Below are positions 19,969 to 43,703 of a DNA stretch of 64,000 nucleotides, one piece after another. The position numbers were made by a program, and so were the translations under genes. This stretch comes from Myxococcales bacterium. GTDB taxonomy: Bacteria > Myxococcota > UBA727 > GCA-2721815. The stretch lies in contig PBLQ01000061.1 in the NCBI GenBank assembly GCA_002721815.1, forward strand, positions 108,905 to 172,904. Reading direction: 5' to 3'. The notes below the pieces were generated by a model, which saw nothing but the letters and a program-made list of their open reading frames with translations, ran no database searches and was not told where the DNA came from. Position 1 is the stretch's first letter. Each line of letters begins with the position of its first letter.

Positions 19969-22710
19969 ATGAGCAAAAAAGCAAAAGAAAAAGCGTTACA
20001 GGCAAAAGAAGACGCGCTTTTAATTCGAGCGTCCGGTGTCATTTGGCCGGAAGACGCCAAAATCACTCCCATGATGCGTCAATGGCTCAAGGCCAAAGCC
20101 CAATCGCCTTCTTCCATTTTGCTTTTCCGCATGGGGGATTTTTACGAGCTTTTCGGTGATGACGCTGTTTCGGCCGCGCCCGTTTTAGAGTTGGCCTTGA
20201 CCAGCCGTGACAAAGGTAAAAACGGATTTCCCATGGCTGGGTTTCCGCACCATGCCGCTCCGGTTTATATTGCCAAACTCATCGAAGCTGGCCTCAAAGT
20301 GGCTGTCTGTGATCAAATGGAAGACCCTGCTTTGGCGAAAGGAATTGTCAAAAGGGATATCACTCGCATTGTAACGCCCGGTCTTATTTTAGAAGATGAA
20401 AGTTTAACCGCTGGCAACAATAACTATTTAATGGCCATCCACGGTGATGCCCATCAAATGGGTTTGGCCGCTTTAGATTTGTCCACCGGTGATTTTGTGT
20501 GCACCGTAACAGCTGACTATGAATCAATTTGGGATGAGGTTTTACGTCTCAACCCTGCAGAATTGGTGGTGGTGGACCAACCCTGGCAGCGGGCACAATT
20601 TGAAGGCATGGTACAAGCGCACCCTGGAGCACTGACCTGCCGAATAGAGTGGAAAGAAACGAAGCGCCTAGACGTGGCGGTGTTCGAACCACTCGGCCTT
20701 TTAGATCCTGTTTTAGAAACCGATTCATTCAAAGAAGGCTTGACCGCAGCTGCTTTGGTTTTATCTTACGTCCAAGAGAATCAAAATGGCTTACCACCTC
20801 ATTTGTCGACGCCGCGGCCTTACGCTATCGATCATCAATTGATTATTGATGAAACCACCCGAACCCACCTGAACTTGGTTGGTTCCTCCCGCCAGCGACG
20901 TAAAAAGGGAACGCTCCTGTGGGCGCTCGACCGAACATTGACCGCTATGGGGTCCAGGCATTTGCAAAGACGTTTGCTGGCGCCTTCAACAAATCTTGAA
21001 AAAATAAACAACTGGCAAGATGAAGTGGCCGAGATGGTGGCGAAACCAATGGTTGTCGAAGGTCTCAAAACCGCGTTGCGTGACGTTTATGATTTAGAAA
21101 GATTAACCGCGCGTGTGGCCAGCCAACGTGCTTCCCCTCGTGATCTTGGTCAACTACGTAAGTCTATGAGCGCTTTGCCTCGTTTGCAACAGGCTTTGGG
21201 GCTGAGTAAAAAAGGTGTGTTGGCAGCCCGGGGCAAAGCACTGGATATACTTGACGACGTGTACGCCGAGTTGGATAAAGCGTTGGCCGAAACGCTGCCG
21301 CTCACCCAAAAAGAGGGCGGTTTGTTCAAAGAAGGGTTTAACGCCGAACTTGACGAATTGGTGGGCTTGGCCACAGGTGGACGACAAGCCATTGTACAGG
21401 TTGAAGAACAAGAAAGGGCCCAAACGGGAATCCCAAACCTCAAAGTTAAGCACACCCGTGTTTTTGGATACTACATAGAAGTGACTCGCAGCCATTTGTC
21501 CCGGGTGCCGGAACATTATCGACGTAAACAAACGATTGCCAATGGCGAACGATATATTACTGAAGAACTCAAGTCGCTTGAAGAGCGGGTGGCGTCGGCA
21601 GAAACCCGGCGCGTGGCCAAAGAAGCACAGCTTTTTGAAGCGTTGCGAGCCATGTTGGCCTCTCACGCACAACGTTTTTTAAAGGTGGCACAAGATGTGG
21701 CGTCTCTTGACGTTGCTTTCTCCTTTGCGACCATCAGCCAAGAGCGCAACTACAAGAGACCCGAACTGTTGCCCGCCGATCAAAGAATCATGATGGTCGA
21801 AAGAAGCCGTCACGCTGTGTTGGAACTTCTCAGCGAAGAATTGGCAGAGCCTTTCGTGCCCAATGACATTCACCTGGATTCGCAAGAGCGACAGATGTTG
21901 CTGGTGACGGGACCCAATATGGCGGGGAAAAGCACGGTAATGCGCCAGGTGGCACTGATTCAAATTCTCGCACAAATGGGTTGCTTTGTCCCAGCGGAAG
22001 TCGCCAATTTGTCTTTGTGCGATCGGGTCTTTGCGAGGGTCGGCGCCTCTGATGATTTGGCGCGCGGACGGTCTACCTTTATGGTGGAAATGGCAGAGAC
22101 CAGTCACATCCTTAAAAACGCGACGCCTTTTTCTTTGGTACTTTTGGACGAGATCGGGCGAGGCACCAGCACTTATGATGGCCTGGCCATCGCTTGGGCC
22201 GTGACGGAATATTTACACCAGCAGGTGGGTGCACGTACTTTATTCGCGACCCATTATCACGAACTCACCAGTTTATCGACGAAGCTCGAGCGTCTCCAAA
22301 ACATGCATGTGGCGGTCCATGAAAAAGATAAAAAGATAACATTTTTACGATTGCTCAAAGATGGACCTGCGGGCCGCAGTTATGGGGTACATGTGGGAAA
22401 ACTGGCCGGCCTCCCTGATGCGGTGATCGAACGCGCCACTGGGCTGTTGGAGCTTTTTGAGTCTGACCAGGGTCCAAAGAGCGGTCCCTCTGTGCAAGAA
22501 AATCAACTGCTCTTATTCAATGGCCCCAAACCGGAAACCAGTGATGCCGTATCACCCGTTCATCGCTGGCTCGAAGAAGAGCTGGCCGCCTTGGATTTGA
22601 ACGCGCTTACCCCGATCGATGCTTTGAACGCATTGGCAAGGCTTCAAGCCGGTGCGAAGAAAAAATCACCCAAGAAGGCGAAACCCTCCAAGAACATTCG
22701 TCGCGTTTAA
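19969..22710 (+). CDS. mutS: DNA mismatch repair protein MutS.
   Basis: N-terminal TPMMRQWLKAKAQSPSSILLFRMGDFYELFGDDA mismatch-binding domain, Walker A GPNMAGKST, and STFMVEM. Confidence 0.95.
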   Translation: MSKKAKEKALQAKEDALLIRASGVIWPEDAKITPMMRQWLKAKAQSPSSILLFRMGDFYELFGDDAVSAAPVLELALTSRDKGKNGFPMAGFPHHAAPVYIAKLIEAGLKVAVCDQMEDPALAKGIVKRDITRIVTPGLILEDESLTAGNNNYLMAIHGDAHQMGLAALDLSTGDFVCTVTADYESIWDEVLRLNPAELVVVDQPWQRAQFEGMVQAHPGALTCRIEWKETKRLDVAVFEPLGLLDPVLETDSFKEGLTAAALVLSYVQENQNGLPPHLSTPRPYAIDHQLIIDETTRTHLNLVGSSRQRRKKGTLLWALDRTLTAMGSRHLQRRLLAPSTNLEKINNWQDEVAEMVAKPMVVEGLKTALRDVYDLERLTARVASQRASPRDLGQLRKSMSALPRLQQALGLSKKGVLAARGKALDILDDVYAELDKALAETLPLTQKEGGLFKEGFNAELDELVGLATGGRQAIVQVEEQERAQTGIPNLKVKHTRVFGYYIEVTRSHLSRVPEHYRRKQTIANGERYITEELKSLEERVASAETRRVAKEAQLFEALRAMLASHAQRFLKVAQDVASLDVAFSFATISQERNYKRPELLPADQRIMMVERSRHAVLELLSEELAEPFVPNDIHLDSQERQMLLVTGPNMAGKSTVMRQVALIQILAQMGCFVPAEVANLSLCDRVFARVGASDDLARGRSTFMVEMAETSHILKNATPFSLVLLDEIGRGTSTYDGLAIAWAVTEYLHQQVGARTLFATHYHELTSLSTKLERLQNMHVAVHEKDKKITFLRLLKDGPAGRSYGVHVGKLAGLPDAVIERATGLLELFESDQGPKSGPSVQENQLLLFNGPKPETSDAVSPVHRWLEEELAALDLNALTPIDALNALARLQAGAKKKSPKKAKPSKNIRRV

Positions 22711-22719
22711 AGAGGGGGC

Positions 22720-24450
22720 GTGAGTTTGAGTTCACCAGTCATATCTACCAAGTGGAAAATACGCTCCGGGCGTTCTGATGCGGCTTCCGTTTTTTCCGAC
22801 GCTTTGGGGGTGGGTCCCCTGCTGGCACAGGTGATGGCCAATCGTCGACTTGAAGAAGTGGATGCGGCCGAAGCATATCTTGAACCGAGATTGAATTCAT
22901 TGCCTGATCCTGATGCGTTGGCGGGAATGGCTGAGGCAGTGGCACTTTTGGAATTGGCCCTGGAACGAAAAGAGACCGTTGGCATTTTTGGGGATTATGA
23001 CGTGGACGGCGTGACTTCAACAACGCTGCTCGCCGAATTTCTAAGTGCTTGTGGTTTGCATGTGGTGACCACCATTCCCAACCGATTACTCGAAGGTTAC
23101 GGATTGTCTCAAGCTGGCGTCTCGCGGTTAGCAGAGGCTGGGGCACAGCTGATCGTCACCGTGGACTGCGGTGTGACCGCTCATGAAGAGGTCGCTTTTG
23201 CACGGGAAAAAAATATTGATGTCATTGTCATTGATCACCACACCGTACCTGTAACCTTGCCCGAGGCTGTGGCCATCATTAACCCCCATCGACCCGATTG
23301 CACGCGCAATGCGGAACATTTGTGTGCAGTGGGAGTGACCTTTAATCTTTGTGCTTCGCTTCGCCGTTCGTTGCGTGAAAAGAATTATTTTAACGAAATA
23401 GATGAACCAGATTTGCGACCGCTCTTAGATTTGGTGGCGCTCGGAACGGTTGCTGATGTCGTTCCTTTGGTGGCGGATAACCGTGTTTTTGTGCGTCACG
23501 GCTTGCGCATGATCAGTCGGCAACAGCGTCCAGGGTTTTCGGCACTCATGGAGGTGGCAGACATCCAGCCTCAGCGTATCACGTCGGGGCATCTGGGTTT
23601 TCATTTGGGTCCCCGGGTAAATGCGGCAGGTCGTTTGGCCGATGCGGGGCGCGCGGTTTCTTTGTTCCAAACCTCAAATATGAAAGAGGCGCGCCTTTTG
23701 GCCCAGGAATTGGACCGAGAAAATCAAGCGCGGCGAACCCTGGAAAAGCAGATCACAGAAGAAGCCATTGCGGAAATCGAAGGTCATGACGAACTTCGAA
23801 AAGCAAAAGTTTTGGTGGTGGCGAAAACACATTGGCACCCAGGGGTGGTGGGCATCGTGGCGTCCCGACTGGTGGACCGATTTGGCCGACCCGCTTTGGT
23901 CATCGGAGAGGGGGGCAAAGGTTCAGGACGAAGCATCCCTGCGTTTCATTTGCATCAAGCGCTTTGCGCTGCATCTGAGCATCTGTTGGGTTTTGGAGGC
24001 CATGCCCATGCTGCGGGCGTCCATTTGGATTTTTCGGCTCTTAAGCCGTTGCGGAGTGCCTTAAATAAATTTGCCAGTGAACACCTCCCAGATGATGCGC
24101 TGGGACGCGTTTTTCAGTACGATGGAACCATGGCCATGGAAAATGTCACTTTTGGAAATGTCAGTGAGCTGAGCCGCGCGGCCCCTTTTGGGAGGGGGAA
24201 CCCCGAGCCACTTTTTCGATTTGATGGGTTGCAGGTGGCAAACTTACAAATCCTTAATGGAGGACATCTCAAAGCGTATTGCGGCGAGGGGAATACTTTT
24301 GAACTCATCGCATTCGGACAGGCCGATAAAGAAGATTTGTTTGCTGGTTCCGTAGATGTATTGGCCGTTCCTGAAATCAATCGCTGGCGGGGAAGAGAAA
24401 AGCTGCAGTTGCGTGTCAAAGACGTGATGCCCGCGGGGGTGATGCCATGA
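22720..24450 (+). CDS. recJ: Single-stranded-DNA-specific exonuclease RecJ.
   Basis: DHH motifs GDYDVDGVTS, VDCGV and IDHH, plus the DHHA1 GGHAHAAG. Confidence 0.9.
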   Translation: MSLSSPVISTKWKIRSGRSDAASVFSDALGVGPLLAQVMANRRLEEVDAAEAYLEPRLNSLPDPDALAGMAEAVALLELALERKETVGIFGDYDVDGVTSTTLLAEFLSACGLHVVTTIPNRLLEGYGLSQAGVSRLAEAGAQLIVTVDCGVTAHEEVAFAREKNIDVIVIDHHTVPVTLPEAVAIINPHRPDCTRNAEHLCAVGVTFNLCASLRRSLREKNYFNEIDEPDLRPLLDLVALGTVADVVPLVADNRVFVRHGLRMISRQQRPGFSALMEVADIQPQRITSGHLGFHLGPRVNAAGRLADAGRAVSLFQTSNMKEARLLAQELDRENQARRTLEKQITEEAIAEIEGHDELRKAKVLVVAKTHWHPGVVGIVASRLVDRFGRPALVIGEGGKGSGRSIPAFHLHQALCAASEHLLGFGGHAHAAGVHLDFSALKPLRSALNKFASEHLPDDALGRVFQYDGTMAMENVTFGNVSELSRAAPFGRGNPEPLFRFDGLQVANLQILNGGHLKAYCGEGNTFELIAFGQADKEDLFAGSVDVLAVPEINRWRGREKLQLRVKDVMPAGVMP

Positions 24451-25430
24451 AAACAGGGCTTCAATTATTGGGCGGTCTCTTTGTGGTGTGCTGCTTGGCT
24501 TGGGTTTCAAATGTCCATGCAAAAAAAGCGAAAAACCCATTTTTGCCAACGAGAGCTCACATACCCAAAGGGCAGCAACTGGGAGTTTACTTCTTGCCCT
24601 GGGATGACAATGGCCCGGTGTTGGCCGTTCGGTTTTTTCTTTCAAAAGATAACGTGAAAGGCTCTCTTCCTTTAGAGGCTGCCTTCGTCGATGACTCTGG
24701 GTCCGACATTTGGCGGGAAGAAATTTCCGGGGCGGTGGATTTGGCTTTTTGGGGTGAAGCACCACTGGGGGGTAATCGCGTACATATCGACTTTGCGGAT
24801 GATGGAGCCATTCTGATTTCCTTGAAAGACGTCGCCGAATGGGGAAAAGAGAACCCTCAATATCAGCCGGGTGGGGGGTGGCACGTGGCGCCCATTGATA
24901 AACGCGTGGGTGCCCAACTCATGATTGCTGCGCCGCCACCGTCTCTCGACGAACTTAAAACCAACTGGCGGGTCCGTAGGGGGCTATTGGCCGGAAAACA
25001 TCGTCGTTCCTACGGATGGGTTGTGGTCCGCGAACTTAACACATCGGAACCAGTTTCCGCTTTGGTATGGCCCGCCGGTGAAGGTGTAGCGTGGGCCCAA
25101 ATGAATCACAAAGGCGAGATTGAGTTGGAATATTTAAATGCGTTGGCATCCCAATATCGTCGTAAATACTTTAAGGGCGGGGTGCCAGAGCGAGACGCAT
25201 CAAAATGGGAACGCGCACGGTATGACCTGTTGAATGTCACCGAGAAAGACAGGTGTATCATTCCTGCGACGTTTGTGATTTCTGGGTTTCAGGACATGAG
25301 TGGCTATCAAATCAGCGACGCCATTTATACCCGGTGCGAAAAAGACTCTATTTACGGGAGATTGACCATCAAAAGGATGTGGGGCCAGTATCAAAAACTG
25401 GCCACCCAAGGCCTTTGGGTTCAGTTTTAA
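24447..25430 (+). CDS. Hypothetical secreted protein.
   Basis: N-terminal signal peptide MKTGLQLLGGLFVVCCLAWVSNVHA. ATGA overlap with the recJ stop. Confidence 0.5.
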   Translation: MKTGLQLLGGLFVVCCLAWVSNVHAKKAKNPFLPTRAHIPKGQQLGVYFLPWDDNGPVLAVRFFLSKDNVKGSLPLEAAFVDDSGSDIWREEISGAVDLAFWGEAPLGGNRVHIDFADDGAILISLKDVAEWGKENPQYQPGGGWHVAPIDKRVGAQLMIAAPPPSLDELKTNWRVRRGLLAGKHRRSYGWVVVRELNTSEPVSALVWPAGEGVAWAQMNHKGEIELEYLNALASQYRRKYFKGGVPERDASKWERARYDLLNVTEKDRCIIPATFVISGFQDMSGYQISDAIYTRCEKDSIYGRLTIKRMWGQYQKLATQGLWVQF

Positions 25431-25841: not shown

Positions 25842-26047
25842 GTTGTCAGATCCTCGCGTTCCCCCGATGACGCGCTAAACCCTTTGTCCTGGAAGTGCGC
25901 CATTCTACTGAGGTGTAGCCGATGGATGCAAATTATTGGGTTTTGGATTTTTTAGCCGGTAATGTTGTATAAATGGCCGTTTTTAAATATGATTTTCTAA
26001 ATAATCATCGGGGCATGACGCAAGTGCTGGAAAAAGAGATATCAAAA

Positions 26048-27574
26048 ATGGGAGATCCCCAGAAAAAACCAACTGAAATTCAGGCCCTAGCAGGCCGTCG
26101 TTGGAATATTTTGTGGGTTCTGAGCCTCTTTTTCACCGTTGGAATTACGCCGGCTCAGGCTGATGAAGGCCGTTACCAAGATTATGTTTTTGGCGCACGG
26201 GCCATTGCTTTGGGTGGGGCTTTCACCGCGATATCAAACGACGCTTCGGGTATCTTTTACAACCCAGCAGGCTTGGTAGATGTGAGTCGATCGAACCTCT
26301 CCATTGCGACCAGTTTTTACGGGATTGAATTAGGCGGTCAGGATTTTGCTGAGAACGCAGGCTTTTTAAGCTCAGGCAATTTCTCCGCCGCAGATCTAAT
26401 TATTCTTCCTTCGGCATCGGGGGGGGTCATTGGTTTAGGGCGACCCTTATCAAATGGTGCGTATCGCCATGCCGTTGCATTTGGAACGGCTGTACCCAAA
26501 TACACCTACCGGGTTTTTTCGACCCCTCTTTCAGAGCTGGCAACCGACGCCAATGGCATTATTACCCATTACCGCACAGCATTGGTGGATCGAACATTAC
26601 ATGCAGGTGGGGGTTATGCATACCGTCCTTCTCCCTGGTTACGGATGGGCGCTTCACTTCAGTACGTTTTAAGAACGTTAGATGCGACCGAAGGGTTGAA
26701 TGCTTACGAAGAATCGAACACCCGGTCTTTTTTGTCCTCTAACTCACATTTGCGTGCAACGAACCACAGTTTGCGATCTGCTTTGGGAATTAAACTTCAT
26801 CTGGGTTCGCGTTGGTTGGCCGGACTTTCTGTGACCACTCCATCGTTGGGCTTATACGAAAGCGTGTCATTAGAGTCTTATACGGTCACGGGGGCACCGA
26901 ACCTGCCACCCTCATCGCTTACACCGATTTTGTTTGAAAATGATGCTGTGATTGGCGGTGATGGGCTTGGGACGAACCCTGGTGTTGCCTCGGTGGGTAG
27001 CCAGCAACCGGGCTTTGTGCGGGCAGGGATGGCCTTTGTTCAGCCGTCTTCATTTACGTTGGCATTTGATCTCACAGGATACGCGGCCAACGAATATAAT
27101 TTGCTGCCCATCAATTTCATGGAAGGTGTTTATGACGATCGCAGTGTTCAAGAATTATTGAAGCGCATTCCGATATCTATGGCGGTTTCTCGTAAATCAG
27201 TGGTGAATCTCAACATGGGTTTTGAAAAATTATTTGGCGAAAACAAAAGTGCATCTTTCGGTTTCTTTACCGATTTTTCCTCTGCCCCTGAATTAACGGT
27301 AGATGAAAACGGCTTCTTGCCGGCCGGAGAGAATTCCAGGCTCGCGAATCTAGATATGTTGGGGATTGTTTTAAGCTACGGGCAGTTTTCGGAGCATACA
27401 TTAGGAAGATACGGGGTCATGATTTCTACTGGGAAAGGGAACGTGGTCTCATCCTCAGATCCCAGTGGATCATTGGGTGAGGGGTTGCCTCCCTTGGCTG
27501 TGGCCGAAGCCACGGAGACATTCGTTTACTTTTTCGTTTCTTCCAGTTTTCGATACAGCAAGGCGCGCCAGTAG
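26048..27574 (+). CDS. Outer-membrane beta-barrel protein, FadL/TodX/TbuX-like hydrophobic-compound transporter family.
   Basis: Signal peptide ending ...TPAQA. N-terminal GARAIALGGAFTAISNDASGIFYNPAGL hatch motif typical of the FadL family. Confidence 0.55.
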   Translation: MGDPQKKPTEIQALAGRRWNILWVLSLFFTVGITPAQADEGRYQDYVFGARAIALGGAFTAISNDASGIFYNPAGLVDVSRSNLSIATSFYGIELGGQDFAENAGFLSSGNFSAADLIILPSASGGVIGLGRPLSNGAYRHAVAFGTAVPKYTYRVFSTPLSELATDANGIITHYRTALVDRTLHAGGGYAYRPSPWLRMGASLQYVLRTLDATEGLNAYEESNTRSFLSSNSHLRATNHSLRSALGIKLHLGSRWLAGLSVTTPSLGLYESVSLESYTVTGAPNLPPSSLTPILFENDAVIGGDGLGTNPGVASVGSQQPGFVRAGMAFVQPSSFTLAFDLTGYAANEYNLLPINFMEGVYDDRSVQELLKRIPISMAVSRKSVVNLNMGFEKLFGENKSASFGFFTDFSSAPELTVDENGFLPAGENSRLANLDMLGIVLSYGQFSEHTLGRYGVMISTGKGNVVSSSDPSGSLGEGLPPLAVAEATETFVYFFVSSSFRYSKARQ

Positions 27575-28662: not shown

Positions 28663-30030
28663 ATGACGCAGCAAGAACCTCAAAAGCTCACTATGGAAAT
28701 GCTCATGGAATACCTGGCCTCTGGAGAGAAGCCTAAGGAGGCATTCCGCATTGGCACAGAGCATGAAAAATTTGGGTTTCATATCCCCACGCGAACACCT
28801 TTGGGGTTTGAAGGGCGTAAGGGCATTCAGAGCCTTTTAGAAGCCATTTTAAAAGATCCGCAAAGTGCGCCTCGCGGTGAACCCTGGAAGCCGCTGCGCG
28901 AAGCAGGTAAGCTGGTCGGTCTGGCGTCAGGAAGCATGTCTATTTCTTTAGAGCCCGCGGGCCAGTTAGAGCTGTCTGGGGCACCGTTGAAAACCATTCA
29001 TGAAACTGCGCACGAAGTGCGGCAACACTTTAGGTTGCTGCGGCGTTTTTGTGGGCCGAACAACGTTGGCTTTTTGGCTACTGGCTACCATCCTTTTTAC
29101 CATTGGTCCACGTTGCCCCAAATGCCAAAGGCCCGTTACGGCATCATGCGAAACTATATGCCCACAAAGGGCAGACGTGGTTTAGAAATGATGCATGCCA
29201 CCACGACCATTCAAGCGAACTTGGATTTCAGCTCTGAGCAAGAAATGGTAGAGATGTTCAAGCTTGCGCTGGCCATCACGCCGTTGGTGACGACTCTTTT
29301 TGCCAACAGCCCTTTTCTCGAGGGCAAAGCGAGCGGGGCATTGAGCGAGCGCTCTTTGGTTTGGATGGATACTGACCCTGACCGTTCCGGTTTCCCAAGT
29401 TGCGTGTTTGAGAAAGATTTTGGTTACGAAAAGTGGATGAACTGGGTGTTGGATGTCCCCATGTATTTTATTCACCGTGATGGTGAGTATCATGACGTGG
29501 CTGGGGCTTCATTTAGAGATTTTATGTCGAATGGTTTGTTGGGCCATGAAGCCACAATCATCGATTTTGAAAATCATTTATCCACCGTATTTCCTCATGT
29601 CCGGCTCAAGAAATTTTTGGAGGTGCGTTGCGCAGATGGGGGACCCATTAAATTTATTTCTGCTTTACCGGCATTGTGGAAGGGGTTGCTCTACGATGAG
29701 ACGGCCCGACAGCAGGCTTGGGCCCTGATGGACGACCCGTCGTTAGACGAGCTTAACTCTTTCCAAAAAGAGGTCGCCATCAAAGGCTTCGATGCAGTCT
29801 ATCGAGAGCAAAGCTGTCATGATTTGTGCGCTTCACTTGTTGATTTGGCAAGGGACGGCTTGGTTCGACAGGGCGCAAAAAACGATGATGGTGAAGATGA
29901 AACCATCTTCCTCAGAGCTGTTGAAGAGGTGGTACAGCGACGACAAACCCCCGCAGAGCGTCTTCTGTGGAAGCTCAACACTTTTTGGGATGGTGATTTG
30001 CAGCGATTGTGGAAATCACGCGTAGACTAG
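28663..30030 (+). CDS. gshA: Glutamate--cysteine ligase, plant/alphaproteobacterial type.
   Basis: 455 aa. GTEHEKFGF N-terminal motif of plant-type GCL. Divergent from gshB. Confidence 0.75.
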   Translation: MTQQEPQKLTMEMLMEYLASGEKPKEAFRIGTEHEKFGFHIPTRTPLGFEGRKGIQSLLEAILKDPQSAPRGEPWKPLREAGKLVGLASGSMSISLEPAGQLELSGAPLKTIHETAHEVRQHFRLLRRFCGPNNVGFLATGYHPFYHWSTLPQMPKARYGIMRNYMPTKGRRGLEMMHATTTIQANLDFSSEQEMVEMFKLALAITPLVTTLFANSPFLEGKASGALSERSLVWMDTDPDRSGFPSCVFEKDFGYEKWMNWVLDVPMYFIHRDGEYHDVAGASFRDFMSNGLLGHEATIIDFENHLSTVFPHVRLKKFLEVRCADGGPIKFISALPALWKGLLYDETARQQAWALMDDPSLDELNSFQKEVAIKGFDAVYREQSCHDLCASLVDLARDGLVRQGAKNDDGEDETIFLRAVEEVVQRRQTPAERLLWKLNTFWDGDLQRLWKSRVD

Positions 30031-30908
30031 CTTTTTTTACGCGAGATTTTTTTGGTTCGCTTCAGTTTCCATTCACCGAGCTTTCGCCGAATGGTGTGTT
30101 CGGACAGTCCCGTCGATCGTGCCAATTCTCGGTTGCTCATGTTGTCGAAGTTTTGCCGAATAAAGGTGTTTGGATCGTCGATGGGATTGGCCGGTTTGCT
30201 GGGAATCGGCATGTCTGCAATTTGCTTTGCACGCTTTTTTCGACGGTCCGTGGCGTTGCCTGCTTCCACCGGTTGGGCCTTGGCCGCTTTGGCTTTGGAT
30301 TTTGCTTTTTTAGCCTTGGATTTTTTGGCGGCTTTCTTTTCCGCCGGTGCGGAGGCCGTATCTTCGGCGAGGCTGCCAAGAAGGTTCTCAGCATTTTGAG
30401 CGGCCAGATCTTCATCGGACATGGGGGCCGCTGCCTGCGCATCCGCGGTGCCTTCAGCCACATTGGGATTCAGGCCAAGAGAGATGAGTTTGGTTAGAAT
30501 TTCACTCTCTTGGAGATCCAAACATCTGGCTAATTCTGTCACGGTTTTGGATTCGCCGAACTCTTTCAAGAATGCTTTGACATTGAGCTTACCGAATTCC
30601 CGCTCTCCACCCACGAGGTAGGAGATGTCCAAGAAGCCCGGGACTGAGCGTTTGACGCGTCCGTAATTCCGTTGTTCACGGTCAAACAATAATGAACCGA
30701 TTTCGTAAGTCATGGAGGGATCAACGGGGCGCGCGGCGGATCGTTTCACGTTTGCGAGCGCTTCTTCTAAGACCGTTCGTCGCCAAGCCAACGCTGTTTC
30801 GCTGGAGTCATTGGATGTGGAGGATTCATCTCCGGGGTTCTCGAAAATATTGGATGTCCCGTCGTTTACATTATCGAGTTCTTCCAGCTGTTTGCTGTTA
30901 AAAATCAA
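30027..30908 (-). CDS. Hypothetical DNA-binding protein with a histone-H1-like Lys/Ala-rich repeat and a C-terminal HTH (sigma-70 region-4-like).
   Basis: PAEKKAAKKSKAKKAKSKAKAAKAQ, and the C-terminal NMSNRELARSTGLSEHTIRRKL. Also an internal IF2_N-like segment TVTELARCLDLQESEILTKLISLGL. Confidence 0.5.
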   Translation of the reverse strand: MIFNSKQLEELDNVNDGTSNIFENPGDESSTSNDSSETALAWRRTVLEEALANVKRSAARPVDPSMTYEIGSLLFDREQRNYGRVKRSVPGFLDISYLVGGEREFGKLNVKAFLKEFGESKTVTELARCLDLQESEILTKLISLGLNPNVAEGTADAQAAAPMSDEDLAAQNAENLLGSLAEDTASAPAEKKAAKKSKAKKAKSKAKAAKAQPVEAGNATDRRKKRAKQIADMPIPSKPANPIDDPNTFIRQNFDNMSNRELARSTGLSEHTIRRKLGEWKLKRTKKISRKKS

Positions 30909-31230
30909 AGTGTCCTCCTAAGGCTCTCACTGGGTCCGATCGCTCCAATATATACGGGCCAGCAGCCCCATTTGGCGCGATTTTCTCGGTGCGAACAAGC
31001 GGGTAACAACCACGGCGATGCCCGTCAAGCAGTGCCAAAGGGTGAGATTTTGCTGGATTAGCCCGTTGACCTTTGGGAGAAGTCTGTTAGATCTTCTCAC
31101 GTTTCGGGCTTACCCAAGTCTGAACCCAAGTGGTGAATGGCCGCATCGGTGTGTCACCGTATTCGATGGTCGAATATGGGAACCCCGGCCCTCTGGCCCA
31201 CGGAGACAGCGTTCTCCCCGAAGGTACAAA

Positions 31231-31590
31231 ATGTCTTTTATCGAAAAAATCCAACAAAATTACTTACGTAGCGACCATCCTGAGTTTCGCGTGGGCGACT
31301 CTTTGCGTGTTCACTTTCGCATTAAAGAGGGCGAAAAAGAGCGTGTTCAGGTCTTCCAAGGCCTGTGTTTGGCCATGAGCCGCAACAGCCATGCTGGTAC
31401 CATCACCGTGCGAAAGATCTCTTTTGGTCAGGGCGTCGAGCGTATTTTCCCCATCTCATCTCCCCGAATCGAAAAGATTGAAGTGGTTCAAAGAGGCCGC
31501 GTGCGTCGTGCCAAGTTGTACTACCTCCGTGCGCTTCGCGGTAAGAAAGCGCGGATTAAAGAACGCCAAGACTGGGGAAAAAAGAAATAA
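31231..31590 (+). CDS. rplS: 50S ribosomal protein L19.
   Basis: MSFIEKIQQNYLRSDHPEFRVGDSLRVHF...GKKARIKE from an internal start in the longer ORF. Confidence 0.95.
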   Translation: MSFIEKIQQNYLRSDHPEFRVGDSLRVHFRIKEGEKERVQVFQGLCLAMSRNSHAGTITVRKISFGQGVERIFPISSPRIEKIEVVQRGRVRRAKLYYLRALRGKKARIKERQDWGKKK

Positions 31591-31627
31591 AAACAGGTGC
31601 TTAAATGTACTTGCCAAGCCGGTGAAG

Positions 31628-31661
31628 CCAGCCTTCCACCGGCTTTTTTTTGAGCAAAAGG
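31628..31661 (+). terminator. Rho-independent terminator after rplS.
   Basis: GCCGGTG ... CACCGGC stem followed by T8. Confidence 0.6.
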
Positions 31662-31675
31662 GTTGGGTTTGAATC

Positions 31676-32725
31676 GTGCAGCATGATCTTTTTTCTAAGT
31701 CGGAGCACAAATCCTATCCCTTCGCCGCGTGGTATATTGAAAATATCAGTAAAATCGCGGGGATAGATGAGGCAGGGCGCGGTCCATTGGCGGGACCCGT
31801 GGTGGCGGCTGCGGTGGTGCTCGATCCCAGCACCACTTTTTTGGCGGAGTTGGGTGATTCGAAAAAGCTGTCCGAGAAAAAGCGCGACGTCCTTTTTGAT
31901 CTGATTCACCAAGAAGCAATAACCGTGGGCGTTTCGGTTGTGAGCCCAGCTGAAATTGATCAATTGAACATTTTACAGGCCACTTTGTTGGGCATGAAAA
32001 ACGCTTTCGCGCGTGCGGAGCAAGAACGGGGCCGTAACATCTTGGGTGCCATCGTCGATGGTAACCAGAGAGTCATGCTTCCCCACAGGGTGGTTCAACA
32101 CACGCTGGTGGGTGGTGATGCCAAATGTCCGTCGGTGATGGCGGCATCGATTATTGCGAAGGTCACGCGAGACCGCCTCATGAAAAAAGCAGACATCGAT
32201 TACCCCGCATATGGGTTCGGAAAACACAAAGGGTACGGAACCAAAGCTCACATCTCGGCACTTCAGGAACATGGTCCTTGTGAATTACATCGAACAAGTT
32301 TTCGCCCCGTCAAGGATGCACTCGTCAAAGCGGAGGGCCGTCTTTCCGTGACCACGACTACCGAAGTGGGTCGAACGGGAGAAGACGAAGCTTCCAATTT
32401 TTTGAAAGCGCAGGGCGTCAGCATTCTCGAAAAAAATTATAAGATGGCACGGGGTGAAATCGATCTCATTGGCATGGATCAAAACACATTGTGTTTTGTC
32501 GAAGTCAAGACGCTTCGCAAAGCTGGATTCAAGCCAGCCCACCACCAAGTGAATGCACGGAAGCAAAAGCATCTCATTCAAGCTGCACAGTCCTACCTTC
32601 AGCGACACCAACGTTATCGTGATCATTCCTGTCGGTTTGACGTTATCTCTGTGGAAGGACCGGTTGAGCGTCCTCAGATCCAATGGCACCGAGCTGCTTT
32701 TGAGAGCCCGGTAAAAGGAATTTAA
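31676..32725 (+). CDS. rnhB: RNase HII fused to a C-terminal YraN/UPF0102-family endonuclease domain.
   Basis: N-terminus IAGIDEAGRGPLAGPVVAAAVVL...DSKKLS is RNase HII. C-terminus EASNFLKAQGVSILEKNYKMARGEIDLIGMDQNTLCFVEVKT is YraN-like. The 349-aa ORF is continuous. Confidence 0.75.
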   Translation: MQHDLFSKSEHKSYPFAAWYIENISKIAGIDEAGRGPLAGPVVAAAVVLDPSTTFLAELGDSKKLSEKKRDVLFDLIHQEAITVGVSVVSPAEIDQLNILQATLLGMKNAFARAEQERGRNILGAIVDGNQRVMLPHRVVQHTLVGGDAKCPSVMAASIIAKVTRDRLMKKADIDYPAYGFGKHKGYGTKAHISALQEHGPCELHRTSFRPVKDALVKAEGRLSVTTTTEVGRTGEDEASNFLKAQGVSILEKNYKMARGEIDLIGMDQNTLCFVEVKTLRKAGFKPAHHQVNARKQKHLIQAAQSYLQRHQRYRDHSCRFDVISVEGPVERPQIQWHRAAFESPVKGI

Positions 32726-33601
32726 ATGACGGGTCGTTTTTTTGTTGTGGCAACGCCCATCGGCAACTTAGGTGATCTCACTTTACGAGGCCAAGAGGTC
32801 CTGTCGGAAGCGGCCGTCATTTTGGCGGAAGATACGCGGCACAGTCAGAAACTGTTAAGAGGTTTGAGCATTGCATTTGAAGAGAAGCAGTTAATTTCTT
32901 GTCATCAGCACAATGAGCTGGATCGATTGAACCTGGTGCTGGATGCATTGGCGGAAGGCAAATGTGTTGCACTGGTTTCCGATGCTGGAACGCCCACCCT
33001 CAGTGACCCCGGTGGACGGCTGATTGAAAAATTAATCCACCAAGGCATAAAAATAGAGGTGTGTCCTGGTGCCAGTGCCTTGTTAGCTGCCTTAATGGGG
33101 GCGGGTTTAAACACCACGCGTTTTGCTTTTTTGGGATTTTTGCCGAAGAAGGGGAAAGAACGCGAAACACGAATCACTTCGGCGTTGGTCGCTGGTTTGT
33201 CGGTGGCATTTTACGAAGCACCAGAGCGCATCGAGAAAACGCTTCAAGATTTAAACCAATGGGTGGGGCCCATCAAAGTAGTGGTGGCCCGCGAACTCAC
33301 CAAAAAATTTGAAACGTTTCACCGGGGTGTATTGGGTTCAGAGCTCGCACCACCCCTGGTGCTCAAAGGTGAGATGGTGGTGGTCCTAGAAGCGCCCCAG
33401 GCGCCTGCCCAAGCCTGGTTGATGGGACTGAGCGAAGAGGCCCAACAAGAAGCCACGCGGGCACGTGTGACTGCTCTGGCTGCAGATTCGTCGCTGTCAC
33501 CAAAGGCTGCGGCGAAAGAATTGATGGTGGCCACGGGGTGGTCACGAAAAGAGGCCTATGATGCCATTGTCGCTGCGCGAAAAGACGAGGGCGAGACCTA
33601 G
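32726..33601 (+). CDS. rsmI: 16S rRNA (cytidine1402-2'-O)-methyltransferase RsmI, with a C-terminal extension.
   Basis: MTGRFFVVATPIGNLGDLTLRGQEVLSEAAVILAEDTRHSQKLL tetrapyrrole-methylase fold. Confidence 0.85.
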   Translation: MTGRFFVVATPIGNLGDLTLRGQEVLSEAAVILAEDTRHSQKLLRGLSIAFEEKQLISCHQHNELDRLNLVLDALAEGKCVALVSDAGTPTLSDPGGRLIEKLIHQGIKIEVCPGASALLAALMGAGLNTTRFAFLGFLPKKGKERETRITSALVAGLSVAFYEAPERIEKTLQDLNQWVGPIKVVVARELTKKFETFHRGVLGSELAPPLVLKGEMVVVLEAPQAPAQAWLMGLSEEAQQEATRARVTALAADSSLSPKAAAKELMVATGWSRKEAYDAIVAARKDEGET

Positions 33602-34854
33602 AAGGTTAAGCCACCGTGAATCATCAGTTCCCAGCCGAGAGATTCTTCAACATAGAGTCGACGGCCGGGTGTGTCTAAGATGGGATTGTACCAATGATTG
33701 ACTTCATTGCTGCTTAAGTCATCGAGGTCAACGTAACCATTACTGTTTTTGTCGGTACCAATGTCTTCGGCAGTAACCATGTGATCGGAGTCGTAGGTAA
33801 AGAGGAAGTCCACATCAAAATGGACAAAAGGCCCTGCTTTAAAATAAAAGCCGGCACCTGCCTCGGTGCGCATGAACTGCTCCACATAAGTGAGGTCGTT
33901 AAAAAGATCGGATATCTCAGAGTAATTGCGGCCTTCCGAAAAATATTCAGTTCCGCCGAACAGGTCGATGGCGAACTTTTGGTCGTAGGCTGGGTCTTCG
34001 TGCGCAATAATTTCAAGACCAGCTCGAACCCCGCCGTGATGCTGTCCGTGCAAGCCCCACAGGGCTTCGCTGGCAGGAATAGGCCCGGTGTAATGCATGA
34101 GGAAATGAGGATCCAAGAAGAGGAAACGTTTGGACATGGCCACCGCCAAACCGATGAGATGGGTCCCGTTGGCCACGTTACCCACGTCGGTGGAGTTGGC
34201 GGCTTCGGTCCACGGGTCCATGTAGGGGAAAAAGGGGGCCGTATAGGACAGATCGAGCGTGGTGGTCACTGAACTTGGTTGACGTTCGTTGTTACTGGGG
34301 GACCATCGGAACCCAAAGGTGGGATTATTGGGACCCGCTCTTTCGGATGAAAATGCACCCGTTGCATTATCGAAACGCCAATCATTATAGGCTTGTCCTT
34401 CGGGAATCCCAAAGTTGCTGGTGGGCCAGCCGTCAACCAAGGTTGGCGAAGCGTTGTTTTGGTCTTGGGCCAAGGACGAATTAGAAGCATTGGTCCCGTT
34501 TGCGTAGATACTGTTTTGATTCCAAGACAACACAATGGGAATTTTGAGATAAAGTGCCAAATCTCTAAACAATCCCAATTCGAGACGGGGTTGAATCATG
34601 TGTTGTGTGCTTTCGTAATTCAGTTCTTTCACTCGCATCACACGGTTCACTTTGTTGGTAGTGTCTTGCTGATAGTTTTCTCGGGTAATGCTCGCGGTGT
34701 GGGTGCGCAAATCGTATTGCATTTCGATGTTAGCATCGAATGGATCGTTATCGTCCATGGCATCGGCCACTTCAGTTATTCGTGCTGAATGTCCAGGGGC
34801 GCACCAAACGGCTGCCATGAGAGCGAAACCCAAAGCAAAAGGCTTAAACCGCAT
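33598..34854 (-). CDS. Putative outer-membrane beta-barrel protein (hypothetical).
   Basis: Signal peptide MRFKPFALGFALMAAVWCAPGHSA, Asn/Gly/Tyr-rich, C-terminal ...IHGGLTF (terminal Phe OMP signature). GGAG RBS. Confidence 0.5.
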   Translation of the reverse strand: MRFKPFALGFALMAAVWCAPGHSARITEVADAMDDNDPFDANIEMQYDLRTHTASITRENYQQDTTNKVNRVMRVKELNYESTQHMIQPRLELGLFRDLALYLKIPIVLSWNQNSIYANGTNASNSSLAQDQNNASPTLVDGWPTSNFGIPEGQAYNDWRFDNATGAFSSERAGPNNPTFGFRWSPSNNERQPSSVTTTLDLSYTAPFFPYMDPWTEAANSTDVGNVANGTHLIGLAVAMSKRFLFLDPHFLMHYTGPIPASEALWGLHGQHHGGVRAGLEIIAHEDPAYDQKFAIDLFGGTEYFSEGRNYSEISDLFNDLTYVEQFMRTEAGAGFYFKAGPFVHFDVDFLFTYDSDHMVTAEDIGTDKNSNGYVDLDDLSSNEVNHWYNPILDTPGRRLYVEESLGWELMIHGGLTF

Positions 34855-41873: not shown

Positions 41874-43703
41874 GTGTCAGCCTTTCTGCTCAAAAACCCA
41901 CGAAGTCACAATTGTAACCAACTCACCAAGGACAATCTCAACGAAGAAGTGGTCCTGATGGGCTGGGTGAACAGCTTGCGCGATCATGGCGGCCGACGCT
42001 TTGTTGATCTTCGCGATCGATACGGCTTAACGCAAATCGTATTTAAGCCCGAAACCGACGAAGCTTTGCATCAGTTGGGCCATGCCATGCGAAATGAGTG
42101 GTGCATCGGCATTCGCGGTGTGGTGGAAGATCGTGTGGCCAATGGTGGGGCACCCAACACCCGTCTGACCACAGGCGAAATCGAAGTGAACGTGTTAGAG
42201 GTGGAAGTGTTTAATGCCGCGGAAACACCGCCCTTCATGGTTGAAGATAATGTGGACACCCATGAAGAAAAGCGGTTGCAACATCGAACCATCGATCTGC
42301 GGCGTGCACCCATGCAGCGTAATTTCATCATGCGTCACAAAGTGGCCCAGGCGGCTCGACGCGCATTAGATGACGACGGGTTCTTAGAAATCGAAACGCC
42401 CATGCTGGTGAAATACACGCCAGGTGGGGCGCGTAACTTTATTGTGCCTTCGCGTTTACACCCAGGCAGCTTTTACGCCTTGGCTGAGAGCCCCCAGTTG
42501 TACAAACAAATGTTGATGATGTCGGGTTTCGATCGTTATTTCCAAGTGGTGAAATGCTTTCGTGATGAAGATTTACGCGGCGACCGTCAACCTGAGTTTT
42601 CTCAAATCGATTTGGAAATGAGCTTTGCTTCGGAACGTACGGTCCAAGAGGTGATCGAGCGGTTGGTTACTCGAATTTTTAAAGACGTACTCGATCATGA
42701 CTTGCCTCAAGTCTTTCCGAGCATGACTTACCATGAGGCCATGACCCGTTTTGGTTCGGATAAACCAGACACGCGATTCGGCTTAGAGTTGAAAGATCTG
42801 ACGGCTTGCCTCAAAGACATTGGGGGCGGCGGTGTTCCTCTGTTCGCTCAAACCATCGACCGGGGTGACATTATCAAATCCATGGTGGTGCCCAAAGCAA
42901 ACCCCATGTCACGCAGTGAAGTAGACAAGCTAGAGGGCTTGGTGAAGTCTTTAGGTGGTTTTGGTTTGGGACGGGCGAAAGTCGGGGAGGATGGCGCTTC
43001 TTGGACCCAATCACCGTTCTCCAAACACGTGACGCCGGAAGGCATTCAAGCCATTCATGAGGCCACGGGTGCACAGCCAGGCGATTTAATTTTGTTTCAA
43101 ATGGGTAAGGCCAAATTAGTGAACACCGTGTTCAATGGACTGCGACTCAAACTCGGCGCTCAGTTCGGTCTCATTCCTGAGAGTGGCCCCGATGCTTGGC
43201 ACGTGATGTGGGTCACTGACTTCCCGTTGTTTGAGCATGACGAAGAGAGCAATACTTTTGCTGCCGCGCACCATCCGTTCACATCCCCCCAAATGGGCCA
43301 TGAAGACAAGTTAAAAACCGACCCCGGTGCCTGTCTCAGTCGTGCCTATGATTTGGTGATTAACGGAAACGAAATTGGTGGGGGCTCCGTCCGGATTCAC
43401 GATCAAGAAGTTCAAGCCAAAGTATTTGATGCCATGGGCATCGGTGAAGAAGAGAAACAGGCCAAATTTGGTTTTCTCCTGGACGCGCTCAAATATGGTG
43501 CGCCACCTCATGCGGGCGTGGCGTTGGGCTTGGACAGGCTCTGTATGCTCTTGTCGGGGACTCAATCCATTCGAGATGTGATCGCATTTCCCAAAACACA
43601 GCGCGGACAAGACGCGGTGACTGGTGCGCCCACGCCTGTGGATCTACAGCAGTTGAATGAGGTTTATATCGCTTCTACCGCTCCTGACGATGAAGACGAT
43701 TAA
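41874..43703 (+). CDS. aspS: Aspartyl-tRNA synthetase.
   Basis: RSHNCNQL N-terminus, class II motifs FRDEDLRGDRQPEF (motif 1/2 region) and GGGSVRIHD...G(L)DRL (motif 3), plus the GAD insertion. Confidence 0.95.
   Translation: MSAFLLKNPRSHNCNQLTKDNLNEEVVLMGWVNSLRDHGGRRFVDLRDRYGLTQIVFKPETDEALHQLGHAMRNEWCIGIRGVVEDRVANGGAPNTRLTTGEIEVNVLEVEVFNAAETPPFMVEDNVDTHEEKRLQHRTIDLRRAPMQRNFIMRHKVAQAARRALDDDGFLEIETPMLVKYTPGGARNFIVPSRLHPGSFYALAESPQLYKQMLMMSGFDRYFQVVKCFRDEDLRGDRQPEFSQIDLEMSFASERTVQEVIERLVTRIFKDVLDHDLPQVFPSMTYHEAMTRFGSDKPDTRFGLELKDLTACLKDIGGGGVPLFAQTIDRGDIIKSMVVPKANPMSRSEVDKLEGLVKSLGGFGLGRAKVGEDGASWTQSPFSKHVTPEGIQAIHEATGAQPGDLILFQMGKAKLVNTVFNGLRLKLGAQFGLIPESGPDAWHVMWVTDFPLFEHDEESNTFAAAHHPFTSPQMGHEDKLKTDPGACLSRAYDLVINGNEIGGGSVRIHDQEVQAKVFDAMGIGEEEKQAKFGFLLDALKYGAPPHAGVALGLDRLCMLLSGTQSIRDVIAFPKTQRGQDAVTGAPTPVDLQQLNEVYIASTAPDDEDD

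What the first reader, a model, noticed from the sequence alone, without database searches (positions are those of the whole stretch)
31676..32725. RNase HII and YraN (UPF0102) endonuclease encoded as a single fused ORF
rnhB and yraN are usually adjacent separate genes next to rplS/rsmI. Here the reading frame is continuous from the RNase HII catalytic DEAGRGPL motif through a ~60-aa linker into the YraN-like PD-(D/E)xK domain (EIDLIGMD...FVEVK). A physical fusion would support a functional coupling of the two nucleases in Okazaki-primer or R-loop processing.
Basis: seen in the sequence. Interest (0 to 1): 0.5.

Follow-up and report, generated by a model that had tools for sequence, protein, structure and literature searches.

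The report
Genuine fused RNase HII–YraN nuclease gene
A marine bacterium encodes two normally separate DNA-maintenance nucleases, RNase HII and YraN, as one intact and conserved protein; the fusion is real, but this domain combination is already common in public databases, so it is a modest clue to a functional link rather than a discovery.

Summary
Window 31676..32725 (+) is one uninterrupted 349-aa ORF. It carries a complete RNase HII domain (aa 26-214) and a complete YraN/UPF0102 PD-(D/E)XK domain (aa 227-342). The true linker is about 12-17 aa, not about 60.

It is not an assembly artefact. The identical protein occurs in at least four independent assemblies. Relatives at 86% and 55-59% identity keep the frame. 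Both halves are under strong purifying selection (dN/dS 0.08 and 0.06; linker 0.49), and all catalytic residues are intact.

A syntenic relative (L028) has the same gene block with rnhB and yraN as separate genes, so the fusion is derived. An RNase HII tree places the window clade with unfused enzymes, apart from 105 other fused proteins (200/200 bootstraps). This points to an independent origin.

The architecture is already abundant in databases: 114 of the 131 homologues examined are fused, and NCBI and JGI annotate such proteins. I found no paper discussing it.

Functional coupling is plausible but unproven. YraN's only demonstrated role is ssDNA cleavage at transformation D-loops with ComM, and no comM or dprA lies in the window. 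The finding is ordinary to mildly interesting.

The parts
31676..32725 (+). Fused rnhB-yraN ORF: GTG start, 349 codons, TAA stop
   Evidence: ORF list and sequence. Identical protein P0001 found on at least 10 contigs from independent assemblies. The N-terminus agrees with relatives P0002 and P0003.
31751..32317 (+). RNase HII domain (aa 26-214). Catalytic D31, E32, D128, D148; GRG motif 34-36; Tyr187
   Evidence: Pfam and NCBIfam matches above curated cut-offs. Aligns end to end with E. coli RNase HII 7UWE (E 1e-46). The AF2 model superposes on 7uwe_C with TM 0.96 and rmsd 1.4 A. These residues are invariant or nearly so in 114 and 104 fused homologues.
32318..32353 (+). Inter-domain linker (aa 215-226; up to aa 230 counting the hinge)
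   Evidence: Not covered by either NCBIfam profile. dN/dS is 0.49 here against 0.06-0.08 in the domains. AF2 pLDDT is about 68 for residues 221-230. The median linker in 114 fusions is 14 aa.
32354..32701 (+). YraN/UPF0102 PD-(D/E)XK endonuclease domain (aa 227-342). Motif residues E261, D263, E276, K278, D322
   Evidence: Pfam PF02021, NCBIfam NF009150 and TIGR00252 all above cut-off. Matches PDB 3FOV (UPF0102 RPA0323) at E 3e-12 and structurally at TM 0.88. D263 is invariant and E261, E276 and K278 are at least 90% conserved in 104 fusions.
32332..32350 (+). GGAGGG (32332-32337) followed by in-frame GTG codon 225 (32348-32350): a possible relic or residual internal yraN start
   Evidence: Sequence. 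The same codon is ATG in the 86% relative L016, but its SD-like motif is degraded there. The codon aligns with about position 1-2 of stand-alone YraN profiles. Weak evidence, and the feature is not conserved in the 55-59% relatives.
31231..31590 (+). rplS (ribosomal protein L19), upstream gene of the block
   Evidence: Pfam Ribosomal_L19, E 9.5e-47. NCBI MBL93198.1.
31616..31651 (+). Hairpin plus U8 after rplS: intrinsic terminator or attenuator ending 24 nt before the fused ORF's start
   Evidence: RNA fold gives -16.8 kcal/mol, z = -3.1 against shuffles. The consensus scan missed it.
32726..33601 (+). rsmI (16S rRNA C1402 2'-O-methyltransferase). Its ATG directly follows the fused ORF's TAA
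   Evidence: Pfam TP_methylase, E 3.9e-30. NCBI name and accession MBL93199.1. Sequence TAAATG at 32723-32728.

Best explanation
This is a genuine, selectively maintained gene fusion. One 349-aa polypeptide carries a complete, catalytically competent RNase HII at the N-terminus. That enzyme nicks DNA 5' of embedded ribonucleotides and cuts RNA-DNA junctions. A complete YraN-type PD-(D/E)XK ssDNA endonuclease sits at the C-terminus, joined by a flexible hinge of about 12-17 aa. The fusion arose within a marine 'Myxococcales'-labelled lineage from the conserved block rplS - rnhB - yraN - rsmI, by loss of the rnhB stop and intergenic spacer, or by a frame change in an overlap. It arose independently of the similar fusions common in Marinimicrobia, Latescibacteria and the wider FCB group. 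Shown here: the continuity of the ORF, the integrity of both domains and their active sites, conservation, purifying selection, and the derived and independent origin. Inferred: each domain keeps the chemistry of its stand-alone family, and the fusion enforces 1:1 co-expression and tethers a rather unspecific ssDNA endonuclease to an enzyme that recognises RNA-containing or nicked duplex DNA. Under that reading the two nucleases act on the same repair or recombination intermediate. Expression probably depends on read-through of the rplS attenuator hairpin and is coupled to rsmI.
For: Continuous ORF. Both domains score above curated cut-offs. The RNase HII DEDD residues, GRG motif and Tyr, and the YraN D/E/K residues, are conserved in 104-114 fusions. 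The identical protein occurs in at least four independent assemblies. Fused orthologues exist at 86% (L016) and 55-59% identity (P0003-P0007, L020). Nei-Gojobori dN/dS against L016 is 0.081 for RNase HII, 0.059 for YraN and 0.49 for the linker, at dS about 0.86. AF2 gives mean pLDDT 91.8 with two well-folded domains and a lower-confidence hinge. The domains superpose on E. coli RNase HII (TM 0.96) and on UPF0102 structure 3FOV (TM 0.88). Derived origin: L028 has the same five flanking orthologues (40-67% identity) but separate rnhB and yraN genes with a 122-nt spacer. Other unfused junctions show an ATGA overlap (L001), a spacer of about 80 nt (L008) and out-of-frame overlaps (L018, L021). Independent origin: the 17 closest RNase HII domains outside the clade are unfused. 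In the NJ tree the clade groups with at least 5 unfused enzymes, excluding all 105 other fusions, in 200 of 200 bootstraps. An exhaustive search with the YraN half returns 149 stand-alone proteins among the top 150. FCB-type fusions lie in unrelated gene neighbourhoods. YraN biochemistry comes from bioRxiv 10.1101/2024.02.06.579203.
Against: No activity, expression or protein-level data exist for this or any RNase HII-YraN fusion. The pTM of 0.71, without a PAE map, does not establish a fixed inter-domain interface. YraN's validated partner ComM, and dprA, are absent from the 64-kb window and from the neighbourhoods of three other fusions, so the pathway the fusion serves is unknown. The YraN-domain tree is unresolved. 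Secondary fission in the unfused sister lineages cannot be formally excluded, and the L018/L021 overlap could be a frameshifted former fusion. NCBI's own annotation of this MAG apparently gives the gene no protein product. This is inferred from the locus-tag and accession numbering and may mean the pipeline treated it as a pseudogene.
Confidence: 0.85

Rival explanations
1. The fusion is real but functionally neutral. Two tightly packed, translationally coupled operon neighbours were accidentally joined by loss of a stop or spacer. Each domain works independently in its own pathway: ribonucleotide excision repair for RNase HII, and ComM-dependent transformation or another ssDNA task for YraN. 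The fusion carries no information about coupling.
For: Unfused relatives already have ATGA overlaps or out-of-frame overlaps, so a single indel suffices to fuse the genes. The linker evolves almost freely (omega 0.49) and varies from 8 to 66 aa among fusions. In E. coli the two genes are unlinked. The YraN literature ties it to ComM, not to RNase H.
Against: The same two domains have been fused at least twice, in the same N-to-C order. The fusion persists over deep divergence, down to about 40% identity and across more than 100 clusters. It also persists after moving to unrelated neighbourhoods. Recurrent and long-lived fusions usually reflect some benefit of co-localisation or co-regulation.
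Confidence: 0.35
2. One reading: the fusion couples the two nucleases in Okazaki-primer removal or R-loop processing.
For: RNase HII acts on RNA-DNA junctions and hybrids (established knowledge; structural matches to RNase H2-substrate complexes 3O3F/3O3G). YraN cleaves ssDNA with little specificity, and both R-loops and displaced flaps expose ssDNA. rnhB-yraN adjacency recurs in several phyla.
Against: No experiment links YraN to replication or R-loops. Its mutants are defective specifically in transformation recombination. Cutting the displaced DNA strand of an R-loop would be hazardous. Nothing in the window (replication genes, rnhA, polA) supports this context.
Confidence: 0.15
3. Sequencing or assembly artefact: a missed stop or frameshift between two separate genes.
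For: MAG-derived sequence. Close unfused relatives have yraN in another frame. NCBI's annotation seems to lack a protein for this gene.
Against: The identical ORF occurs in at least four independent assemblies and sequencing runs. The frame is preserved in orthologues at 86% and 55-59% identity, with many synonymous changes across the junction. More than 100 other fused proteins are known.
Confidence: 0.02
4. A decaying pseudogene or half-dead fusion in which one domain is inactive.
For: Possible pseudogene status in the NCBI record, inferred.
Against: All catalytic residues of both domains are intact. dN/dS is 0.06-0.08 for both halves. Both domains fold with high AF2 confidence.
Confidence: 0.03
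5. Dual expression: besides the fusion protein, a free YraN is made from internal start codon 225 (GTG, preceded by GGAGGG).
For: SD-like GGAGGG lies 10 nt upstream of GTG225. The orthologous codon is ATG in L016. The position matches the natural N-terminus of stand-alone YraN.
Against: The SD-like motif is not conserved in L016 (GAAGGC). There is no equivalent start in the P0003-P0007 linkers. A start codon somewhere in a stretch of about 10 codons is expected by chance about 40% of the time (own estimate).
Confidence: 0.1

Closest known systems
Bacterial RNase HII (RnhB; type 2 RNase H; e.g. E. coli RnhB PDB 7UWE, T. maritima RNase H2 PDB 3O3F)
   Same: The full-length catalytic domain is about 46% identical to E. 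coli RnhB over about 190 aa. The DEDD residues, GRG motif and Tyr are conserved, and the fold superposes with TM 0.96.
   Different: It carries an extra C-terminal nuclease domain of about 125 aa. E. coli rnhB is a stand-alone 198-aa protein in the lpxB-rnhB-dnaE cluster.
YraN / UPF0102 (PF02021), e.g. E. coli YraN (b3148), L. pneumophila YraN, R. palustris RPA0323 (PDB 3FOV)
   Same: It matches the whole profile and has the ID...EVK PD-(D/E)XK motif and the same fold. It lies next to rsmI, as in E. coli and as noted for the family.
   Different: It is not a free protein of about 120-130 aa but the C-terminal domain of RNase HII. No comM lies nearby, whereas comM is co-localised with yraN in 34% of genomes that have both.
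RNase_HII + UPF0102 fusion proteins of Marinimicrobia/Fidelibacterota, Latescibacteria and the 'FCB group' (e.g. P0017, P0019, P0020, P0040, P0042). NCBI names them 'ribonuclease HII'; JGI names P0040 'ribonuclease HII/Holliday junction resolvase-like predicted endonuclease'.
   Same: They share the same domain order, short linker (median 14 aa) and intact active sites.
   Different: They are only 38-46% identical overall. Their RNase HII domains form a separate group from the window clade, which nests with unfused enzymes in 200 of 200 bootstraps. Their gene neighbourhoods are different. A Latescibacteria subgroup adds an RNase_HII_N domain (PF27457) and an insert of about 60 aa.
Separate but adjacent rnhB-yraN gene pairs (L028 syntenic relative; Acutalibacter L001; Syntrophobacteraceae L008; Antarctic Dry Valley contigs in PMC10140301)
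   Same: The gene order is the same. L028 shares all five flanking orthologues with the window.
   Different: These are two polypeptides, with junctions ranging from a 122-nt spacer to an ATGA overlap. The unfused syntenic relatives have Arg in place of the motif Lys (EVR).

Membership tests
RNase HII (PF01351 / NCBIfam NF000595) | Full-length match to the family profile above the curated cut-off | tested here: met
   Pfam 127.2 bits against 25.8, profile positions 1-198 of 199. NF000595 231.9 bits against 167, positions 3-186 of 188.
RNase HII (PF01351 / NCBIfam NF000595) | Four acidic metal-binding residues (DEDD) | tested here: met
   D31, E32, D128 and D148 align with the E. coli RnhB motifs VDEVGRGPL, IDGN and KGDS. 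They are invariant, or 112 of 114 for D128, in fused homologues.
RNase HII (PF01351 / NCBIfam NF000595) | GRG motif and conserved Tyr that recognise the 2'-OH at the RNA-DNA junction (established from T. maritima RNase H2-substrate structures) | tested here: met
   G34-R35-G36 and Y187 are present and invariant in 114 fusions. The protein matches 3O3F and 3O3G.
RNase HII (PF01351 / NCBIfam NF000595) | Ribonucleotide-directed endonuclease activity | not testable with these tools
   Needs an enzyme assay.
YraN / UPF0102 (PF02021, NF009150, TIGR00252) | Full-length match to the family profile above the curated cut-off | tested here: met
   PF02021 85.7 bits against 23.6 (positions 1-80 of 80). 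NF009150 108.2 bits against 81. TIGR00252 94 bits against 69.
YraN / UPF0102 (PF02021, NF009150, TIGR00252) | PD-(D/E)XK catalytic motif (ID ... EVK). L. pneumophila D37 and E50 are required for activity. | tested here: met
   D263 (GEIDLI), E276 and K278 (FVEVK) are present. D263 is invariant and E276 and K278 are at least 90% conserved in 104 fusions. The equivalence to Lp D37 and E50 is by motif and was not aligned directly.
YraN / UPF0102 (PF02021, NF009150, TIGR00252) | Minimal alpha-beta-beta-beta-alpha-beta restriction-endonuclease-like fold | tested here: met
   AF2 predicts H228-245, E249-257, E260-268, E271-280, H294-310 and E318-327. Foldseek match to 3FOV has TM 0.88, with weaker matches to Hjc resolvases.
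YraN / UPF0102 (PF02021, NF009150, TIGR00252) | Functional partnership with ComM helicase in natural transformation | tested here: inconclusive
   No comM or dprA was found among 38 window ORFs scanned against Pfam, nor near three other fusions. The rest of the genome could not be examined.
RNase_HII-UPF0102 fusion architecture (database-level domain architecture; no curated family model) | Both domains in one ORF, RNase HII N-terminal, short linker | tested here: met
   114 of the 131 retrieved homologues share it.
RNase_HII-UPF0102 fusion architecture (database-level domain architecture; no curated family model) | Common descent with the FCB-group fusions (a single fusion event) | tested here: not met
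   In the RNase HII tree the window clade groups with unfused enzymes, excluding all 105 other fusions, in 200 of 200 bootstraps. In the exhaustive search, 149 of the top 150 YraN-half neighbours are stand-alone. Syntenic relative L028 is unfused.

The most novel reading that the evidence does not exclude
RNase HII and YraN have been fused repeatedly and independently, always in the same order, and the fusions have been maintained for long periods. They also persist in genomes and neighbourhoods with no nearby comM. This could mean that YraN has a housekeeping role downstream of RNase HII, separate from its ComM-dependent role in natural transformation. For example, it might cut the displaced ssDNA flap created after RNase HII nicks at an embedded ribonucleotide, acting as a second nuclease in bacterial ribonucleotide excision repair.
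Probability: 0.12. Interest if true: 0.6.

Novelty: new member of a known kind. Interest (0 to 1): 0.25.

Why it matters
YraN was an orphan 'UPF' family until a recent preprint assigned it to transformation D-loop processing with ComM. That work does not mention the widespread genomic link to RNase HII. A recurrent fusion of this kind is cheap, independent evidence that the two nucleases may meet on the same DNA intermediate. It also offers a natural single-chain reagent for testing that idea. On the practical side, the gene appears to have no protein product in NCBI's annotation of this MAG. The evidence here says it should be annotated as an intact bifunctional protein. Beyond that, both domains are textbook members of their families and the architecture is already common in sequence databases.

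Tried and rejected
1. The word-indexed search with the YraN half alone returned only 51 stand-alone proteins and missed even the self-hit, so it could not give a fused/unfused ratio. I replaced it with the exhaustive phmmer search.

2. The single genome-contig scan used exact peptides from the query and found only 11 loci. L001 and L008 looked fused in its summary (query residues 27-326 and 15-344), but tblastn frames show two separate genes.

3. The first tree attempt with Biopython timed out. I redid it with a vectorised NJ. The YraN-domain tree (110 columns) was unresolved and is not used as evidence.

4. The afdb50 structure library was unavailable, so I could not list named UniProt organisms with the fusion. 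The PDB search shows no solved structure covering both domains; the best TM-score normalised to the query is 0.53.

5. The consensus terminator scan missed the rplS hairpin. Direct folding confirmed it.

6. Literature searches found nothing on the fusion. 'YraN' plus 'RNase HII' gave 0 papers. Broader searches and targeted reading found no description of it. The Aravind/Makarova/Koonin 2000 paper is not held under the PMC id I tried from memory. Searches failed on term syntax.

7. The search for comM or dprA in the window was negative.

8. I considered the sequencing-artefact and pseudogene explanations and rejected both.

Full report
**1. The observation**

Window 31676..32725 (+) is one ORF of 349 codons, starting at GTG and ending at TAA. 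The other two forward frames contain stops across the junction.

Pfam assigns RNase_HII to aa 28-211 (E 1e-36) and UPF0102 to aa 235-326 (E 2.8e-24). NCBIfam assigns RNase HII (NF000595) to aa 26-214 and YraN (NF009150, TIGR00252) to aa 227-342. All of these score above their curated cut-offs.

The only factual correction concerns the linker. About 12 residues (215-226) are unassigned by the profiles. Measured between conserved anchors the linker is 17 aa, not about 60.

**2. Not an artefact**

- The identical protein is called on contigs from independent assemblies: two ENA Tara Oceans assemblies, NCBI GCA_002298025.1 and a Logan assembly of SRR5324508.
- An 86%-identical orthologue (L016) and five 55-59%-identical ones (P0003-P0007; L020 checked at the DNA level) keep the same frame.
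- Between the window and L016, dS is about 0.86. dN/dS is 0.081 for the RNase HII part, 0.059 for the YraN part and 0.49 for the linker.
- In alignments of 114 and 104 fused homologues, the RNase HII residues D31, E32, G34-R35-G36, D148 and Y187 are invariant, and D128 is present in 112 of 114 sequences. The YraN residue D263 is invariant, and E261, E276, K278 and D322 are at least 90% conserved.
- AF2 with this alignment gives mean pLDDT 91.8 and pTM 0.71, with a softer hinge at residues 221-230.
- The N-domain superposes on E. coli RNase HII (7uwe_C, TM 0.96, rmsd 1.4 A). The C-domain superposes on UPF0102 structure 3FOV (TM 0.88). No solved structure spans both domains.

**3. Context**

NCBI labels the MAG 'Myxococcales bacterium'. 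The local order is GCS2 - hypothetical (-) - rplS - [rnhB-yraN] - rsmI - hypothetical (-) - sigma-54 response regulator - histidine kinase.

A hairpin followed by U8 comes after rplS (31616-31651; -16.8 kcal/mol, z = -3.1) and ends 24 nt before the GTG start. The TAA of the fused ORF abuts the ATG of rsmI. The rest of the window holds housekeeping genes, including mutS, recJ, aspS, relA/spoT and prfA-like genes. There is no comM or dprA.

**4. Origin**

L028 comes from a relative whose five flanking genes are orthologous to the window's (40-67% identity). There, rnhB (60% identical) and yraN (35% identical) are separate genes with a 122-nt spacer. The fusion in the window clade is therefore derived.

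Other unfused junctions show how small the step to a fusion is. L001 (Acutalibacter) has an ATGA stop/start overlap. L008 has a spacer of about 80 nt. L018 and L021 are the closest RNase HII relatives outside the clade. In both, a bona fide UPF0102 ORF (E 6e-25 in L018) overlaps the rnhB 3' end out of frame, and gene callers missed it.

**5. Distribution and independence**

Of the 131 homologues retrieved, 114 carry both domains, with a median linker of 14 aa. Eight Latescibacteria-type proteins add an N-terminal RNase_HII_N domain and an insert of about 60 aa. Sources name these proteins 'ribonuclease HII' (Marinimicrobia, Latescibacteria, FCB group, Fidelibacterota). JGI names one 'ribonuclease HII/Holliday junction resolvase-like predicted endonuclease'.

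Analysed domain by domain, the window clade's nearest outside relatives are unfused:

- 17 rnhB-only proteins (54-62% identity) outrank all other fusions (47-54%).
- More than 110 stand-alone YraN proteins outrank the first outside fusion.
- In the exhaustive search of 1.84 billion representatives with the YraN half, 149 of the best 150 hits are stand-alone proteins of 114-188 aa, among 21,507 hits at E <= 1e-3.
- An NJ tree of 129 RNase HII domains groups the window clade with at least 5 unfused enzymes, excluding all 105 other fusions, in 200 of 200 bootstraps. The clade itself is monophyletic in 179 of 200.
- Three FCB-type fusions lie in unrelated neighbourhoods.

Hence there were at least two independent fusion events. 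Secondary fissions cannot be strictly excluded.

**6. Function**

Each domain has everything that defines its family, so the simplest reading is a bifunctional nuclease. RNase HII chemistry is well established. For YraN, the only experimental data held in the library are in a preprint. It reports a PD-(D/E)XK ssDNA endonuclease with little specificity. It is required, with and through the ComM helicase, for maturation of the natural-transformation D-loop. RNase H is not mentioned there, and I found no paper that discusses the fusion. rnhB-yraN adjacency has been noted in passing, as has yraN-rsmI adjacency.

It is supported by the recurrence and persistence of the fusion. But it is unproven, and the specific Okazaki-primer or R-loop proposal has no direct support. 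A neutral 'operon accident' remains a serious rival.

**7. Verdict**

The fusion is real, intact and conserved, and it represents an independently arisen instance of a domain architecture that is already abundant in public databases. It is of low to moderate interest. Its main value is as a hint for people studying YraN and ribonucleotide excision repair, and as a correction to an annotation that apparently omits the protein.

Noticed in passing
window 31676-32725, with neighbours 30027-34854: NCBI protein accessions run consecutively: MBL93197 (hypothetical, CMH56_15460), MBL93198 (L19), MBL93199 (RsmI), MBL93200 (hypothetical, CMH56_15480). The locus tags leave one slot (15470) with no protein, and the fused protein has no 'NCBI nr' source. 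The fused gene is probably annotated without a product, possibly as a pseudogene, in that record. This is inferred from the numbering only.
   Followed up: partly
L018 5470-6057 and L021 about 3521-4120: In the closest unfused relatives, gene finders did not call yraN. It lies in another frame and overlaps about 125-140 nt of the rnhB 3' end. A candidate ATG sits inside the rnhB 'HGPC' codons, and a 9-nt indel between the two loci preserves both frames. This could be a long gene overlap, a frameshifted former fusion, or programmed frameshifting.
   Followed up: partly
window 31616-31651: A hairpin plus U8 follows rplS immediately (-16.8 kcal/mol, z = -3.1) and ends 24 nt before the fused ORF's start. 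It probably attenuates rather than fully terminates transcription into rnhB-yraN-rsmI. The consensus terminator scan missed it.
   Followed up: partly
window 32332-32350: GGAGGG followed 10 nt later by in-frame GTG (codon 225), at the position where a stand-alone YraN would start. The orthologous codon in L016 is ATG. This may be a relic of the ancestral yraN start or a weak internal start.
   Followed up: partly
L028 4885-5268; L018 5560-6057; L021: The unfused YraN proteins of the syntenic and closest relatives have Arg in place of the motif Lys (FVEVR, IIEVR). 110 of 114 fused proteins keep Lys. L018 and L021 also carry a variable insertion between the second and third strands.
   Followed up: no
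L026 6001-7305 (P0015) and relatives P0020, P0024, P0026, P0028, P0031, P0043: A Latescibacteria-type variant of the fusion has an N-terminal extension of about 75-135 aa (precomputed Pfam PF27457, RNase_HII_N) and an insert of about 60 aa between the two nuclease domains.
   Followed up: no
window 32723-32728: The stop codon of the fused ORF (TAA) is followed directly by the ATG of rsmI, which suggests translational coupling of the three activities.
   Followed up: no
window 30027-30908 (-) and 33598-34854 (-): Two hypothetical proteins without Pfam domains flank the block. Both are conserved in synteny in L028 (47% and 40% identity) and in L012, L013 and L020. The first is Lys/Ala-rich with a weak C-terminal HTH hit.
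   Followed up: no
window 43700-46456 (-), 18436-19905 (+), 25973-27574 (+), 24447-25430 (+): These large ORFs (918, 489, 533 and 327 aa) have no Pfam match at E <= 1e-4.
   Followed up: no
window 19969-24450: mutS and recJ are adjacent and co-oriented, separated by 9 nt, about 7 kb upstream of the fused nuclease gene.
   Followed up: no
L009 4588-4920 (Myxococcota MAG): Here yraN lies immediately downstream of rnhB but on the opposite strand (convergent). The neighbourhood is kept even where co-transcription is impossible.
   Followed up: no
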